Below, piece after piece: positions 41,960 through 43,196 of a DNA stretch of 64,000 bases (its first letter is position 1; every line of letters begins with the position of its first letter). Both the position numbers and the translations under genes were made by a program. The notes under the pieces are model-generated. The model did no database searches, was not told the origin of the DNA, and worked only from the letters and a program-made list of their open reading frames with translations. This DNA comes from a virus (taxonomy: Duplodnaviria > Caudoviricetes): the IMG/VR virus record IMGVR_UViG_3300042914_002678; one strand, written 5' to 3'.

Positions 41960-42041
41960 GGGTAGGTGTCCGAGTGGTTAATGGAGGCGGACTGTAAATC
42001 CGCTGGCTCTGCCTACGGGGGTTCAAATCCCTCCCTGCCCA
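41960..42041 (+). tRNA. trnY: tRNA-Tyr(GUA)
   Basis: GCGGA-CT-GTA-AA-TCCGC; long variable arm. Confidence 0.95.
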
Positions 42042-42043
42042 CT

Positions 42044-42210
42044 TGCCGTGGTTCAAGACTTGAGATAGGATGCAGTGGGGCGCCTATCAAAAAGGATTGA
42101 TTTAGATTCACAACCACACGGCATTTAGGGAATTATCTTGTAAAATAGCTCCGATGTTTTCCTCTTTGAGGTTTAGATTTTTTCCTTGACCGCTGCGGGT
42201 AAACGGTCAA
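42044..42210 (+). ncRNA. Large structured RNA, probably the manA RNA motif
   Basis: Stems TGCCGTGGTT/AACCAC-ACGGCA, GATAGG/CCTATC, CCTC/GAGG, TTGACCG/CGGTCAA; possible AAAAAGGA/TTTTCCT pseudoknot; exactly fills the Tyr-Ile spacer. Family name is from memory and needs an Rfam check. Confidence 0.55.
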
Positions 42211-42213
42211 CCT

Positions 42214-42287
42214 GGGAGATTAGCTCAGTTGGTTAGAGCGCACGACTGATAATCGTGAGGTGCCAAGTTCGAGTCTTGGATTTCCCA
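42214..42287 (+). tRNA. trnI: tRNA-Ile(GAU)
   Basis: CACGA-CT-GAT-AA-TCGTG. Confidence 0.94.
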
Positions 42288-42288
42288 C

Positions 42289-42317
42289 TTGACAATCAAA
42301 TCCTCAACTGATATGAT
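42289..42317 (+). promoter_or_regulatory. sigma70 promoter TTGACA-17-TATGAT
   Basis: GACAATCA/TGATTGTC inverted repeat spans the -35 and -10 boxes. Confidence 0.75.
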
Positions 42318-42325
42318 TGTCTCAT

Positions 42326-42400
42326 GGGTGTTGAGGGTCCAAACCTCAAGTAAATCCTACCCCTCCCATGCCTCTCACAGAAGCACAAACAGGGAGGTCT
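42326..42400 (+). ncRNA. Unassigned structured RNA
   Basis: GGGTG/TACCC enclosing TTGAGG/CCTCAA, then CTCCC/GGGAG enclosing TGC-TCT/AGA-GCA. Confidence 0.45.
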
Positions 42401-42403
42401 CTT

Positions 42404-42477
42404 GACTCAGTAGCTCAGTTGGATAGAGCATCTGCCTTCTAAGCAGTTGGTCGGGGGTTCAAGTCCCTCCTGAGTCG
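42404..42477 (+). tRNA. trnR: tRNA-Arg(UCU)
   Basis: CTGC-CT-TCT-AA-GCAG. Confidence 0.94.
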
Positions 42478-42561
42478 TTGGAGTTCATCTCCATATATAA
42501 AAGTGATAGAGGGTAAGCCTCTGTTATATCCTTATGAGGTATATTACGCTTACTCCATCAT

Positions 42562-42644
42562 GCTTCAGTGGTGGAACGGTAGACACAGCGGACTTAGAAT
42601 CCGCCGCCTTAAAAAGCGTGGAAGTTCAAATCTTCTCTGGAGCA
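42562..42644 (+). tRNA. trnL: tRNA-Leu(UAG)
   Basis: GCGGA-CT-TAG-AA-TCCGC; long variable arm. Confidence 0.94.
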
Positions 42645-42645
42645 C

Positions 42646-42674
42646 TTGACAATCAAACTCAAAAGGTTTATGAT
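42646..42674 (+). promoter_or_regulatory. sigma70 promoter TTGACA-17-TATGAT (copy of the 42289 element)
   Basis: Same CACTTGACAATCAAA...TATGATTGTCTCA frame. Confidence 0.75.
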
Positions 42675-42684
42675 TGTCTCACAA

Positions 42685-42756
42685 GCGGAGTTAGTTCAGC
42701 GGTAGAACGCTATCCTTCCAAGTTAGATGTCGTCGGTTCGATTCCGATACTCCGCT
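42685..42756 (+). tRNA. trnG: tRNA-Gly(UCC)
   Basis: CTATC-CT-TCC-AA-GTTAG; U73. Confidence 0.93.
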
Positions 42757-42779
42757 CTGAACCTTCGGGTTCTTAAAAT

Positions 42780-42883
42780 GTGGTTCTGGGTGGAATTCCC
42801 AGCAGTTCCGTTAGGGACTGTCCTTTGTAGGTTCGATACCTACATCTTCCTTATGGGAGATAAGAACGGCTATTGGAAACCAC
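42780..42883 (+). ncRNA. tRNA-like multi-branched RNA (possible circularly permuted tRNA fold)
   Basis: GTGGTT/AACCAC closing stem, three to four internal hairpins, GGTTCGATACC T-loop. Confidence 0.55.
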
Positions 42884-42885
42884 CT

Positions 42886-42957
42886 CCTCTGGTAGTCTAT
42901 TGGTAAGGACGGGTGGACAACACACATGGAAACTAGGTTCGATTCCTAGACAGAGGT
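42886..42957 (+). tRNA. Atypical tRNA / tRNA mimic with degenerate anticodon arm
   Basis: Acceptor CCTCTG/CAGAGG, D arm GTCT/GGAC and T arm CTAGG-TTCGATT-CCTAG intact; anticodon arm poorly paired, no U33. Confidence 0.6.
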
Positions 42958-42961
42958 ACAT

Positions 42962-43034
42962 TCCCTTATAGCTCAATTGGCAGAGCACGAAGCTGTTAAC
43001 TTTGGGGTTCCTGGTTCGAGTCCAGGTGGGGGAG
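42962..43034 (+). tRNA. trnN: tRNA-Asn(GUU)
   Basis: CGAAG-CT-GTT-AA-CTTTG. Confidence 0.94.
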
Positions 43035-43124
43035 TTGGAAGTGATCCTGCGATAACCTCAAGAGCACTCCTTCCAACTAAAACCTAGAATATTTCTAGGT
43101 CAGGGGGATGGCCTCCCCTGTTTC

Positions 43125-43196
43125 GGGCGATTAACTCAGCGGTAGAGTGCCTCCTTTACACGGAGTAGGTCGGCGGTTCGAATCCGTCATCGCCCA
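43125..43196 (+). tRNA. trnV: tRNA-Val(UAC)
   Basis: CTCC-TT-TAC-AC-GGAG. Confidence 0.94.

What the first reader, a model, noticed from the sequence alone, without database searches (positions are those of the whole stretch)
41960..43196. tRNA operon whose spacers are almost all structured RNAs
Seen: 7 canonical tRNAs in 1.24 kb, with nearly every spacer filled by a folded element (42044-42210, 42326-42400, 42479-42560, 42780-42883, 42886-42957, 43034-43119) and no protein ORFs. Inference: RNase P and 3' processing of the flanking tRNAs would release each element as a discrete RNA, making the operon a polycistronic ncRNA delivery unit.
Basis: partly seen in the sequence, partly recalled or inferred. 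Interest (0 to 1): 0.7.

Follow-up and report, generated by a model that had tools for sequence, protein, structure and literature searches.

The report
Cyanophage tRNA operon carrying conserved small RNAs
A T4-like cyanophage packs the gaps between its tRNA genes with conserved, structured small RNAs that tRNA processing should cut free: an orphan copy of a known RNA antitoxin, a circularly permuted tRNA look-alike and a non-decoding tRNA mimic.

Summary
Window 41960-43196 has 7 canonical tRNAs, none with an encoded CCA, plus one tRNA-like gene. Every spacer over 40 nt holds at least one element that recurs in related cyanophages.

These elements are independent modules. They shuffle among more than 100 viral contigs and several Kyanoviridae genera. 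They nearly always abut a tRNA end, and they show compensatory base-pair changes.

- **Known family:** 42362-42398 is an abiF-motif RNA (Rfam RF03085). This motif is the RNA antitoxin of AbiF toxins. No AbiF gene was found in the window, its relatives or any cyanophage record.
- **Undescribed as far as I found:** S1a, S3', S7a and S7b, with S7b the least supported. S5 (42780-42883) is a circularly permuted, class-II-like tRNA shape. S6 (42886-42957) is a tRNA shape whose anticodon arm is replaced by a covarying stem with a GAYAA pentaloop.
the two short spacers are near-consensus sigma-70 promoters inside a palindrome, similar to PeSL elements.

Release by RNase P and RNase Z is inferred, not shown. 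Metatranscriptome contigs show presence only. Function is untested. An anti-defence role (AbiF decoy, tRNA mimics) is the leading hypothesis.

The scan had already noted S5, S6 and the promoters on this same window.

The parts
41920..41949 (+). Promoter-like site (TTGACG-18-TAAAAT) just upstream of tRNA-Tyr. The predicted transcription start is a few nt before the tRNA 5' end.
   Evidence: Consensus scan, 10 of 12 matches. Inference only.
41960..42042 (+). tRNA-Tyr (GTA), no encoded CCA
   Evidence: sequence
42043..42125 (+). Module S1a. A roughly 80-nt structured RNA with a 7-bp closing stem, nested helices and invariant unpaired stretches.
   Evidence: Found in 16 viral loci and in phages DSL-LC03, S-RIM32 and S-RIM8 at 76-82% identity. 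21 predicted pairs, 4 with compensatory change.
42126..42213 (+). S1b, the rest of the Tyr-Ile spacer, including a terminal hairpin next to tRNA-Ile. Status unclear.
   Evidence: Present only in near-identical contigs. The whole spacer does not fold better than shuffles (z -1.05).
42214..42288 (+). tRNA-Ile (GAT), no encoded CCA
42289..42325 (+). Promoter 1. TTGACA-17-TATGAT with an extended -10 TG, embedded in the palindrome GACAATCA...TGATTGTC (PeSL-like). It starts 0 nt after the tRNA.
   Evidence: 11 of 12 matches. Two copies in the window against 0 expected. Both hexamers are kept in all 14 variants. Lies within 5 nt of the preceding tRNA or S1a in 43 of 44 contexts.
42326..42361 (+). S2b hairpin, the predicted 5' part of the transcript that carries abiF
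   Evidence: Folds. Found in only 10 loci with 3 variants, so there is no covariation test.
42362..42398 (+). abiF-motif RNA (Rfam RF03085), 4 nt upstream of tRNA-Arg. No partner toxin gene was found.
   Evidence: 44 bits against a gathering score of 37. 13 variants keep the consensus loop bases. 4 of 9 pairs show compensatory change, 2 of them within the phage copies alone, the other 2 only against the two bacterial motifs in the alignment. No AbiF ORF found.
42403..42478 (+). tRNA-Arg (TCT), no encoded CCA
42479..42499 (+). S3 5' part. A small hairpin plus an A/U-rich linker. It is replaceable, with three unrelated versions in relatives.
   Evidence: alignment
42500..42561 (+). Module S3'. 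A long irregular hairpin that ends 1-2 nt before the next tRNA.
   Evidence: 61 loci. Found in phages S-SRM01, S-RIM8 (96%), S-RIM32, S-SZBM1 and S-CREM1. 22 pairs, 98% paired against 31-53% when slid, 5 pairs with compensatory change, and strand-specific G-U pairs.
42562..42645 (+). tRNA-Leu (TAG), no encoded CCA
42646..42684 (+). Promoter 2, the same palindromic TTGACA-17-TATGAT element. The predicted start is about 3 nt before tRNA-Gly.
   Evidence: 26 variants. The Leu(TAG)-element-Gly(TCC) unit recurs in most relatives.
42685..42757 (+). tRNA-Gly (TCC), no encoded CCA
42759..42773 (+). Small GAACC-UUCG-GGUUC hairpin followed by an A/U-rich stretch. Possibly a weak terminator or processing signal.
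   Evidence: Fold. Recurs in 5 further loci. Function inferred.
42780..42883 (+). Module S5, a circularly permuted class-II-like tRNA shape. Order along the RNA:
- 3' strand of the D stem
- anticodon-type arm
- long variable arm
- T arm with loop UUCGAUA
- 3' strand of the acceptor stem
- 4-nt cap
- 5' strand of the acceptor stem (GGG..., with a G3-U70 wobble pair)
- 5' strand of the D stem
- D loop
- 3-bp clamp joining the two ends
   Evidence: 10 loci. 31 pairs, 4 with compensatory change. The re-joined sequence is called a tRNA by ARAGORN at a relaxed threshold, while the native order is not. Only 9 of 98 rotations give a call, all cut at the cap. 0 of 2000 shuffles give a call, and all 7 variants do. 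No Rfam family matches.
42886..42957 (+). Module S6, a non-decoding tRNA-shaped RNA. It has acceptor, D and T arms. The anticodon arm is replaced by a 4-5-bp stem with a bulged A and a GAYAA pentaloop.
   Evidence: tRNA model 30.7 bits. At least 120 viral contigs hold its D-arm core. 69 unique variants, 67 with GAYAA and many alternative stems. 7 of 20 pairs show compensatory change. Unannotated in S-PM2, S-RIM8, S-RIM32, S-SZBM1, S-CREM1 and DSL-LC03.
42961..43035 (+). tRNA-Asn (GTT), no encoded CCA
43035..43078 (+). Module S7a, a hairpin with conserved internal loops. It starts at the tRNA-Asn 3' end.
   Evidence: Occurs on its own in L027, L028, L034 and L065. 14 pairs, 4 with compensatory change.
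43079..43124 (+). Module S7b, two hairpins. The second is G+C-rich and followed by UUUC, right before tRNA-Val.
   Evidence: Occurs without S7a in L010 and L053 with altered stems. Too few variants for statistics.
43125..43196 (+). tRNA-Val (TAC), no encoded CCA

Best explanation
This is the variable tRNA region of a T4-like cyanophage (Kyanoviridae), organised as a promoter-punctuated RNA operon.

**Transcription units (inferred).** Host sigma-70 RNA polymerase would start at three sites: 41920-41949, 42289-42317 and 42646-42674. That would give three overlapping transcripts that carry 7 decoding tRNAs interleaved with non-tRNA modules.

**Excision (inferred).** Every tRNA lacks an encoded CCA, and the modules sit within 0-5 nt of tRNA ends. 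Host RNase P cuts at each tRNA 5' end. An RNase Z-type cut falls after each discriminator base. Together these would free the modules as RNAs with defined ends.

**What the modules are (shown).** S1a, abiF, S3', S5, S6 and S7a are conserved structured RNAs read from the + strand. They behave as cassettes that move independently between tRNA arrays of different phages.

**Proposed functions (not shown).**
- The abiF-motif RNA has no toxin gene of its own. It would act as a decoy antitoxin that keeps a host AbiF (Abi_2/HEPN) abortive-infection toxin inactive.
- S5 (permuted tRNA shape with a capped acceptor stem) and S6 (tRNA shape with a GNRA-like capped arm) would act as tRNA mimics. They would occupy tRNA-binding host or phage factors without decoding.
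- S1a, S3' and S7 have no assignable function yet.
For: **Identity of the region.** tRNAs, wcaG RNA and abiF by Rfam. The best DNA matches are Synechococcus myoviruses.

**Modularity.** In 104 related viral loci the modules are present or absent independently and sit next to different tRNAs.
- S-RIM32 has tRNA-Thr, S3', S6, S1a and tRNA-Ala, all flush.
- S-CREM1 has manA flush between two tRNAs, and abiF 4 nt before tRNA-Gly.

**Selection on structure.**
- S3': 98% of cells paired against 31-53% when slid, and 5 compensatory pairs.
- S6: 7 of 20 pairs compensatory. The loop is GAYAA in 67 of 69 variants.
- S1a: 4 of 21 pairs compensatory.
- S5: 4 of 31.
- abiF: 4 of 9, 2 of them within the phage copies alone.
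- S7a: 4 of 14.
- G-U pairs are tolerated, so the constraint is on + strand RNA.

**Cross-genus identity** is 76-96% for the modules. No record aligns to more than 24% of the whole array.

**Boundaries.** abiF lies within 5 nt of a tRNA in 20 of 20 contexts. S3' does so in 28 of 36. The promoter element follows a tRNA or S1a in 43 of 44. No encoded CCA.

**Promoters.** Two sites match 11 of 12 consensus positions, and both hexamers are kept in all 40 variants; the only change is TATGAT to the consensus TATAAT in one.

**abiF as an antitoxin.** The abiF motifs of RCd22 neutralise AbiF by direct binding in C. difficile (bioRxiv 10.1101/2025.04.15.648962).
- No AbiF homologue in the window, the viral loci or any cyanophage record.
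- AbiF genes occur in photosynthetic cyanobacteria, one with an abiF motif 30 nt upstream.
- An orphan Phd-like antitoxin ORF lies in the same tRNA region.

**S5 permutation test**.

**GACAA** is a known GNRA-like pentaloop with the C looped out (PMC12550061).

**RNA libraries.** Modules are present in RNA-library contigs of four studies. This shows presence only.
Against: - No RNA ends, abundance, strand or stability were measured. Logan contigs from RNA libraries can contain DNA.
- The host of this phage is unknown. AbiF was not shown in picocyanobacteria. Only 1 of 5 AbiF loci scanned in photosynthetic genomes had an Rfam-level abiF motif.
- The phage has a single abiF motif, whereas RCd22 needs two.
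- The 4-nt cap on the S5 acceptor stem may be too tight for RNase P, so S5 may never gain free acceptor ends.
- S1b, S2b and S7b lack enough variation for any test.
- The palindrome in the promoter elements shows no compensatory change, so it may act as DNA, as RNA or as both.
- High identity among the metagenomic contigs partly reflects recent shared ancestry.
Confidence: 0.62

Rival explanations
1. The elements are cis-acting leaders and trailers. They tune processing, folding or stability of the neighbouring tRNAs, for example by guiding or blocking RNase P, Z or E, or by protecting precursors while host RNA is being degraded. They are discarded after cleavage and have no role of their own.
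For: S3' and abiF always lie 0-5 nt upstream of a tRNA. The promoter and hairpin element always follows a tRNA 3' end. S7a starts at the tRNA-Asn 3' end.
Against: The same tRNAs occur in many relatives with 0-3 nt spacers and no such leader. Each module serves several unrelated tRNAs, and modules also abut one another without a tRNA between them (S6-S1a-S3' in S-RIM8). abiF matches a family with a demonstrated trans-acting protein-binding role. S6 is itself tRNA-shaped and keeps an invariant loop.
Confidence: 0.2
2. The spacers are evolutionary debris of a fast-recombining tRNA array. They would be decayed or rearranged tRNA genes plus promoters and terminators. Their sequence similarity would come from recent exchange between phages rather than from function.
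For: S5 and S6 clearly derive from tRNAs. A partial S5 match is simply a tRNA-Ser/tRNA-Ile junction in relatives. The region is hyperplastic. S1b and S2b are confined to close relatives.
Against: Compensatory substitutions occur in six modules. The GAYAA loop is invariant over many alternative stems. Identity is 76-96% across genera whose neighbouring sequence does not align.
Confidence: 0.1
3. The elements act mainly as DNA. They would be recombination or homing sites, or operator-like palindromes, that drive cassette shuffling, as proposed for PeSL elements.
For: The two palindromic promoter repeats sit exactly at module borders. PeSLs are reported to mediate modular shuffling in T4-type phages (PMC2839356 and PMC4122927).
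Against: This fits only the two promoter elements. The other modules tolerate G-U pairs, which would be A-C mismatches on the other strand, and they change by compensatory pairs.
Confidence: 0.06

Closest known systems
Phage T4 stable RNAs RNAC and RNAD (species 1 and 2)
   Same: Small non-tRNA RNAs made by a T4-type phage, with function still unknown (PMC9697503). From my own knowledge, not checked here, they are encoded inside the T4 tRNA cluster and matured by the tRNA-processing machinery.
   Different: No sequence or Rfam relation was found. This array holds seven or more distinct modules rather than two. The modules are mobile between arrays, and one belongs to an antitoxin RNA family.
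abiF motif / RCd22 RNA antitoxin of AbiF (Abi_2) toxins, Rfam RF03085
   Same: The hairpin geometry and consensus loop bases match (44 bits). The family neutralises AbiF by direct binding.
   Different: There is no adjacent or distant AbiF gene. The motif is a single copy. It is embedded as a tRNA leader in a lytic phage. Presence of abiF in one cyanophage (S-CREM1) was reported without a mechanism (PMC9964418).
Pseudo-ToxI of phage PhiTE (antitoxin RNA mimicry against ToxIN)
   Same: It is the precedent for a phage carrying an antitoxin-like RNA to escape an abortive-infection toxin. This rests on my own knowledge and was not checked here.
   Different: It concerns a different toxin and RNA family. 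No escape phenotype is known for the cyanophage motif.
PeSL promoter/stem-loop cassettes of T4-type phages
   Same: A near-consensus sigma-70 early promoter is joined to a stem-loop, lies in hyperplastic regions and sits at borders of shuffled modules (PMC2839356 and PMC4122927).
   Different: Here the stem-loop encloses the promoter instead of preceding it. Only two copies lie in 64 kb. The element flanks tRNAs rather than ORFan genes.
Circularly permuted tRNA genes (red alga Cyanidioschyzon, some archaea) and two-piece permuted tmRNA of cyanobacteria
   Same: In S5 the 3' half precedes the 5' half, with the acceptor strands joined by a short linker. A relative carries a true permuted tmRNA in its tRNA array (L100).
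   Different: No Rfam tmRNA or tRNA hit for S5. The break lies in the D loop and the linker is only 4 nt. Bacteria lack the splicing-endonuclease route used for permuted tRNAs. The anticodon loop is non-canonical.
tRNA-operon-derived regulatory RNAs and tRNA-like processing handles (E. coli 3'ETS-leuZ, MALAT1-mascRNA, plant mitochondrial t-elements)
   Same: The logic is the same: tRNA-processing enzymes define the ends of a non-tRNA RNA. For 3'ETS-leuZ and MALAT1-mascRNA this rests on my own knowledge. For t-elements I saw only the title and abstract of PMC1920247 in the search results and did not read the paper.
   Different: These are unrelated sequences and hosts. None is a multi-module phage array.

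Membership tests
abiF RNA (RF03085) | Covariance-model score above the curated threshold, with the conserved loop nucleotides | tested here: met
   44 bits against a gathering score of 37, full-length match to model positions 1-37. Several phage variants match the consensus loop even better.
abiF RNA (RF03085) | Located directly upstream of an Abi_2/AbiF toxin gene | tested here: not met
   The element downstream is tRNA-Arg. A profile of 7 cyanobacterial AbiF proteins finds nothing in the window or in 110 viral loci. tblastn against 50,697 phage records gives 89 hits, none in a cyanophage.
abiF RNA (RF03085) | Two tandem motifs, as in RCd22 | tested here: not met
   One Rfam hit in the window. 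The neighbouring S2b hairpin does not match the model.
abiF RNA (RF03085) | Binds and neutralises AbiF protein | not testable with these tools
   Needs co-expression or binding assays.
tRNA (RF00005), for S6 at 42886-42957 | Cloverleaf with acceptor, D and T arms | tested here: met
   30.7 bits against a gathering score of 29. Helices are supported.
tRNA (RF00005), for S6 at 42886-42957 | 5-bp anticodon stem with a 7-nt loop and U33 | tested here: not met
   The arm is a 3-5-bp stem with a bulged A and a 5-nt GAYAA loop in 67 of 69 variants. ARAGORN assigns Leu, His or no identity depending on the variant.
Circularly permuted tRNA, for S5 at 42780-42883 | All tRNA elements present in cyclic order, with the 3' half before the 5' half | tested here: met
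   The re-joined sequence is called a 95-98-nt class-II-type tRNA at a relaxed ARAGORN threshold. The native order is not called. Only 9 of 98 rotations give a call, 0 of 2000 shuffles do, and all 7 variants do.
Circularly permuted tRNA, for S5 at 42780-42883 | Matures to a functional, chargeable tRNA | not testable with these tools
   The 4-nt linker, G33 and U37 in the loop, and a score below the default threshold all argue for caution.
Permuted tmRNA (RF01851, RF04321), for S5 | Covariance-model match, tag reading frame | tested here: not met
   No hit at E up to 10. ARAGORN finds no tmRNA in the window. A true one is present in relative L100.
PeSL (promoter-early stem-loop) | Near-consensus sigma-70 promoter joined to a stem-loop | tested here: met
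   TTGACA-17-TATGAT, 11 of 12 matches. An 8-bp palindrome plus an inner stem, z -3.5.
PeSL (promoter-early stem-loop) | Many copies dispersed through hyperplastic regions at borders of variable genes | tested here: inconclusive
   Only 2 copies in 64 kb, both at module borders inside the array. The whole genome is not held.
T4 RNAC/RNAD-type stable RNAs | Accumulate as stable RNAs during infection | not testable with these tools
   Only contigs from RNA libraries were available.

The most novel reading that the evidence does not exclude
The cyanophage tRNA array is a counter-defence RNA island. tRNA-processing enzymes release three kinds of product:
- replacement tRNAs
- two tRNA mimics, one of which would be, as far as I know, the first circularly permuted tRNA-shaped RNA seen in a bacterial virus. 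These would soak up tRNA-targeting toxins or other tRNA-binding factors.

The cassettes are traded between phages as hosts change.
Probability: 0.25. Interest if true: 0.85.

Novelty: new variant of a known kind. Interest (0 to 1): 0.7.

Why it matters
Phage tRNA clusters are usually read as codon-supply or tRNA-replacement devices, and their spacers are ignored. In this array the spacers hold at least six conserved RNA families, and they are mobile between arrays. S6 alone occurs in at least 120 viral contigs and in several cultured cyanophages without annotation.

Three points would interest specialists:
- **An RNA antitoxin in a lytic phage with no toxin gene found.** It is directly testable as an anti-AbiF decoy, because the motif's role was shown experimentally in 2025.
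- **A permuted tRNA shape in a phage.** It bears on how permuted tRNAs and two-piece tmRNAs arise.
- **A general mechanism.** tRNA-processing enzymes would serve as a universal excision system for phage small RNAs.

Cultured phages carry several of the modules, so the experiments are feasible.

Tried and rejected
**Rfam**
- At E up to 1 on the array, and up to 10 on S5/S6, only tRNA and abiF matched. No family matched S1a, S3', S5 or S7.

**blastn against 50,697 phage records**
- No match for 42289-42402 or for S7.
- In the 42758-42957 query, only the S6 part matched.

**Readings of individual modules that I dropped**
- S5 as a reduced permuted tmRNA. I considered this because relative L100 has a real one. 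I dropped it because there is no model hit or tag frame and the permuted-tRNA layout fits every helix.
- The ARAGORN 'tRNA-Phe' call in L005. It uses non-conserved upstream sequence, so I treated it as spurious.
- A hammerhead-like CUGAUGAG in some S3' variants. Most variants lack it and no ribozyme family hit appeared.
- Coding potential of the internal ORFs. No Pfam or PHROG match.

**Searches in genomes**
- AbiF in the phage: none found.
- S5+S6 DNA in 401 Cyanobacteriota genomes: not found in those searched, and the tool notes that an empty answer shows little.
It listed mostly Bacteroidales and Veillonella, so it says nothing about picocyanobacteria.
- The small AbiF-positive genomes in the Cyanobacteriota sample lack photosystem genes, so they are not candidate hosts.
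- The window's own assembly is not held.

**RNA libraries**
- The runs held at most 0.2 of the sampled words.
- Parts of the array without contig cover, and the habitat labels of those runs, are not used as evidence.

**Literature**
- Searches for picocyanobacterial AbiF and for phage tRNA-array spacers gave nothing useful.
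Full report
**What the region is**

The window carries 13 tRNA genes, a wcaG RNA (47381-47482) and DNA whose best matches are Synechococcus myoviruses. It is therefore a T4-like cyanophage of the Kyanoviridae. Its own assembly is not held. The nearest held record is a 36-kb IMG/VR contig.

Within 41960-43196 Rfam finds seven tRNAs at 54.7-68.7 bits: Tyr-GTA, Ile-GAT, Arg-TCT, Leu-TAG, Gly-TCC, Asn-GTT and Val-TAC. ARAGORN adds an eighth call, 'Leu-CAA' at 42886-42957. That one scores only 30.7 bits and lacks a normal anticodon arm. The sequence shows that no tRNA is followed by CCA.

**Check of the observation**

Six of the seven spacer stretches fold better than dinucleotide shuffles, with z between -2.6 and -3.7. 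The long Tyr-Ile spacer as a whole does not (z -1.05). Mechanical ORFs of 30-80 aa cross the tRNA genes. The two longest of them (80 and 59 aa), the only ones tested, match no Pfam or PHROG family. The observation therefore stands, but fold energy alone is weak evidence. The decisive evidence comes from relatives.

**Relatives show that the spacers are cassettes**

I used the two flanking ORFs to fetch 104 related viral loci. I then mapped tRNAs and spacer pieces on them and repeated the mapping with profile searches. The array is hypervariable: relatives carry from 3 to more than 20 tRNAs here.

The spacer pieces recur as separate units. Counts are from the 104 loci:

| Module | Loci |
|---|---|
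| S3' | 61 |
| Promoter element, 42646-42684 copy | 57 |
| S6 | 51 |
| Promoter element, 42289-42325 copy | 27 |
| abiF | 23 |
| S7 | 20 |
| S1a | 16 |
| S5 | 10 |

The units sit next to different tRNAs in different phages, yet they stay flush with tRNA ends:
- abiF lies within 5 nt upstream of a tRNA in 20 of 20 distinct contexts. The tRNA is Arg-TCT in 16, Gly in 2, and Tyr and Ala in one each.
- S3' lies within 5 nt upstream of the next tRNA or S6 in 28 of 36 contexts, with six different partners.
- The promoter element follows a tRNA or S1a within 5 nt in 43 of 44 contexts.

Cultured phages show the same pattern:
- In S-RIM32 the 210-nt gap between tRNA-Thr and tRNA-Ala is filled exactly by S3', S6 and S1a.
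- In S-RIM8 the order is S6, S1a, S3', tRNA-Ala.
- In S-CREM1 the known manA RNA lies flush between tRNA-Leu and tRNA-Asn. There abiF lies 4 nt before tRNA-Gly, and S6 follows tRNA-Met unannotated.

**Evidence for RNA structure under selection**

- **S3' (42500-42561).** 33 sequences and 22 pairs. 98% of cells are paired, against 31-53% when partners are slid. Five pairs show compensatory change, one of them split 18 U-A to 13 C-G. Several pairs use or switch to G-U, which is meaningful only for + strand RNA.
- **S1a (42043-42125).** 13 sequences from three phage genera at 76-82% identity. 21 pairs, 4 with compensatory change, plus long invariant unpaired stretches.
- **S7.** This is two modules. 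S7a occurs alone in several loci and swaps its closing stem by compensatory changes (4 of 14 pairs). S7b occurs alone in others.
- **Untestable parts.** S1b, S2b and S7b have too few variants to test.

Module identity across genera is 76-96%. No record aligns to more than 24% of the whole array. Similarity is therefore concentrated in the modules and the tRNAs.

**The two short spacers are promoters**

42289-42325 and 42646-42684 are copies of one element: TTGACA, 17 nt, TATGAT. It matches 11 of 12 consensus positions, and the first copy has an extended -10 TG. The element lies inside the palindrome GACAATCA...TGATTGTC. The pattern occurs twice in the window against 0 expected.

Both hexamers are kept in all 40 distinct variants. 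The only change is TATGAT to the consensus TATAAT in one variant. The centre of the spacer varies. In the second copy the variation keeps an inner stem (U-A, C-G or U-G). The outer arms show only wobble or mismatch changes.

This matches the PeSL concept of T4-type phages, in which an early promoter plus stem-loop sits at borders of shuffled modules (PMC2839356 and PMC4122927). Here, however, the stem encloses the promoter.

A third promoter-like site lies just before tRNA-Tyr. The predicted starts fall a few nt before tRNA-Tyr and tRNA-Gly, and at the start of the S2b-abiF leader. These starts are inferred.

**The abiF motif**

42362-42398 matches Rfam RF03085 at 44 bits against a gathering score of 37. 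The 13 phage variants keep the family's loop bases, and several match the consensus even better. 4 of 9 pairs show compensatory change. 2 of these are within the phage copies alone. The other 2 appear only against the two bacterial motifs in the alignment.

A 2025 study showed that the ncRNA RCd22 of C. difficile, which carries two abiF motifs, neutralises the AbiF (Abi_2) toxin. It acts in cis and in trans by direct binding, like a type III antitoxin. The study also cites a Prevotellaceae AbiF-RNA structure (bioRxiv 10.1101/2025.04.15.648962).

In this phage the motif is an orphan:
- A profile of cyanobacterial AbiF proteins finds nothing in the window or the viral loci.
- tblastn against 50,697 phage records finds AbiF only in Firmicutes phages.

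AbiF does occur in cyanobacteria:
- 16 of 401 sampled Cyanobacteriota genomes have strong hits.
- Six of these also carry photosystem reaction-centre genes.
- One of the six has an abiF motif 30 nt upstream of the gene.

The same tRNA region of the window also encodes an orphan Phd-like antitoxin (46069-46419; PHROG 375, E 1e-13).

The S-CREM1 paper reported an abiF hit in that cyanophage and three protein antitoxin genes, without a mechanism (PMC9964418; review PMC12197685).

A decoy-antitoxin role is therefore plausible but untested. The actual host, and whether it has AbiF, are unknown.

**S6, a tRNA-shaped RNA that cannot decode**

S6 (42886-42957) has a 6-bp acceptor stem, D arm and T arm. 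All three are invariant or covarying. In place of the anticodon arm it has a short stem with a bulged A and a 5-nt loop.

- Among 69 unique variants, 67 have the loop GAYAA. The stem takes many alternative sequences, such as GGUG/CAC-C, GGCA/UGC-C, CCCC/GGG-G and CCUC/GAG-G.
- The base after the acceptor stem varies, which argues against selection for aminoacylation identity.
- GACAA is the boxB pentaloop of phage P22. It folds like a GNRA tetraloop with the C looped out (PMC12550061). The only variable loop position in S6 is that same third base.

S6 is unannotated in S-PM2, S-RIM8, S-RIM32, S-SZBM1, S-CREM1 and DSL-LC03. ARAGORN labels it Leu, His or undetermined depending on the variant.

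**S5, a circularly permuted tRNA shape**

An earlier first-stage note on this window proposed a permuted tRNA-like RNA, and I tested that reading. S5 (42780-42883) has five helices. Read as a circle, they appear in this order:
- acceptor 5' strand GGGAGAU
- two A residues
- D-stem strand GAAC
- a D loop containing UUGGAAA
- a 3-bp clamp joining the two RNA ends
- D-stem strand GUUC
- a 5-bp arm with a 7-nt loop
- a 7-bp long variable arm
- a T arm with loop UUCGAUA
- acceptor 3' strand AUCUUCC
- one base plus UAU, which closes back onto the acceptor 5' strand

The acceptor stem is 7 bp with a G3-U70 pair.

Results of the test:
- When the ends are joined and the RNA is cut at the cap, ARAGORN at a relaxed threshold calls a 95-98-nt class-II-type tRNA.
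- The native order gives no call.
- Of 98 rotations, only the 9 cut at the cap give a call.
- 0 of 2000 shuffles give a call.
- All 7 natural variants do.

The clamp shows three compensatory changes in one variant, and the variable arm shows one.

Cautions:
- The score is below ARAGORN's default threshold.
- The loop has G33 and U37.
- No Rfam family matches.
- The 4-nt cap may resist cleavage.

I therefore call S5 a tRNA-derived shape, not a tRNA.

Two observations suggest how it could have arisen:
- A partial S5 match in relatives is simply the junction of tRNA-Ser and tRNA-Ile. Retaining the inner halves of two adjacent tRNA genes would give a permuted form like S5.
- A relative (L100) carries a genuine permuted tmRNA with a tag peptide in its array.

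S5+S6 DNA was not found in the 401 Cyanobacteriota genomes searched.

**How it most likely works**

Shown:
- the layout of the array
- conservation, covariation and mobility of the modules
- flush boundaries with tRNA ends
- absence of encoded CCA
- promoter consensus

Inferred from established tRNA biology:
- RNase P cuts at each tRNA 5' end.
- An RNase Z-type enzyme cuts after each discriminator base of CCA-less precursors.
- Together these cuts free each module.

S6, being tRNA-shaped, would add two more cut sites.

Contigs from four metatranscriptome studies contain S1a, abiF, S3', S5 and S6, in arrangements typical of relatives. Such contigs show presence in an RNA library only. They do not show transcription, strand or ends.

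**Comparison with what is known**

- The nearest precedent is T4, whose small RNAs RNAC and RNAD still have no known function (PMC9697503). That they lie in the T4 tRNA cluster is from my own knowledge.
- The excision logic resembles 3'ETS-leuZ in E. coli, mascRNA/MALAT1 and plant mitochondrial t-elements. For the first two this is my own knowledge. For t-elements I saw only the title and abstract of PMC1920247 in search results and did not read the paper.
- A large survey of viral structured RNAs mentions tRNA-like candidates in general, but the passages I read do not mention these modules (PMC10690425).

I found no description of S1a, S3', S5, S6 or S7.

**Verdict**

I rate it a new variant of a known kind, with several new RNA families and two testable ideas (AbiF decoy, permuted tRNA mimic).

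Noticed in passing
L100:5402-5702: A related viral contig carries a full circularly permuted (two-piece type) tmRNA inside its tRNA array. It matches Rfam cyano_tmRNA at 112 bits, and ARAGORN reads the tag peptide ANNIVAFSRSNTTALV.
   Followed up: partly
window 46069-46419: An ORF between tRNA-Pro and tRNA-Ile(TAT) matches Phd-like antitoxins (PHROG 375, E 1e-13). Its Pfam PhdYeFM score of 26.7 bits is below the 29.8-bit cut-off. No toxin partner is adjacent.
   Followed up: partly
window 47381-47482: A wcaG RNA (Rfam, 94.5 bits) lies downstream of the extended tRNA region.
   Followed up: no
window 44189-44623: A ferritin/Dps-like ORF (Pfam Ferritin, E 1e-20; PHROG 'DNA binding protein') lies between the main array and tRNA-Ser.
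   Followed up: no
L241:1149-1363 (S-CREM1): In S-CREM1 the annotated manA RNA fills the gap between tRNA-Leu and tRNA-Asn exactly. This known candidate riboswitch therefore also sits as a tRNA spacer, with no coding gene directly downstream.
   Followed up: no
relatives, e.g. L012, L025, L050, L092: Other conserved-length tRNA gaps recur in relatives and were not examined. Examples are Arg(TCT) to Lys(TTT) at about 328-335 nt, Asn(GTT) to S6 at about 174 nt, and Tyr to Arg at about 103 nt. They may hold further modules.
   Followed up: no
   Followed up: partly
L238 (S-PM2, AJ630128 163957-165429): ARAGORN finds five tRNAs plus S6 in a stretch where this older record annotates no tRNA genes and two small hypothetical CDSs lie among them.
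   Followed up: no
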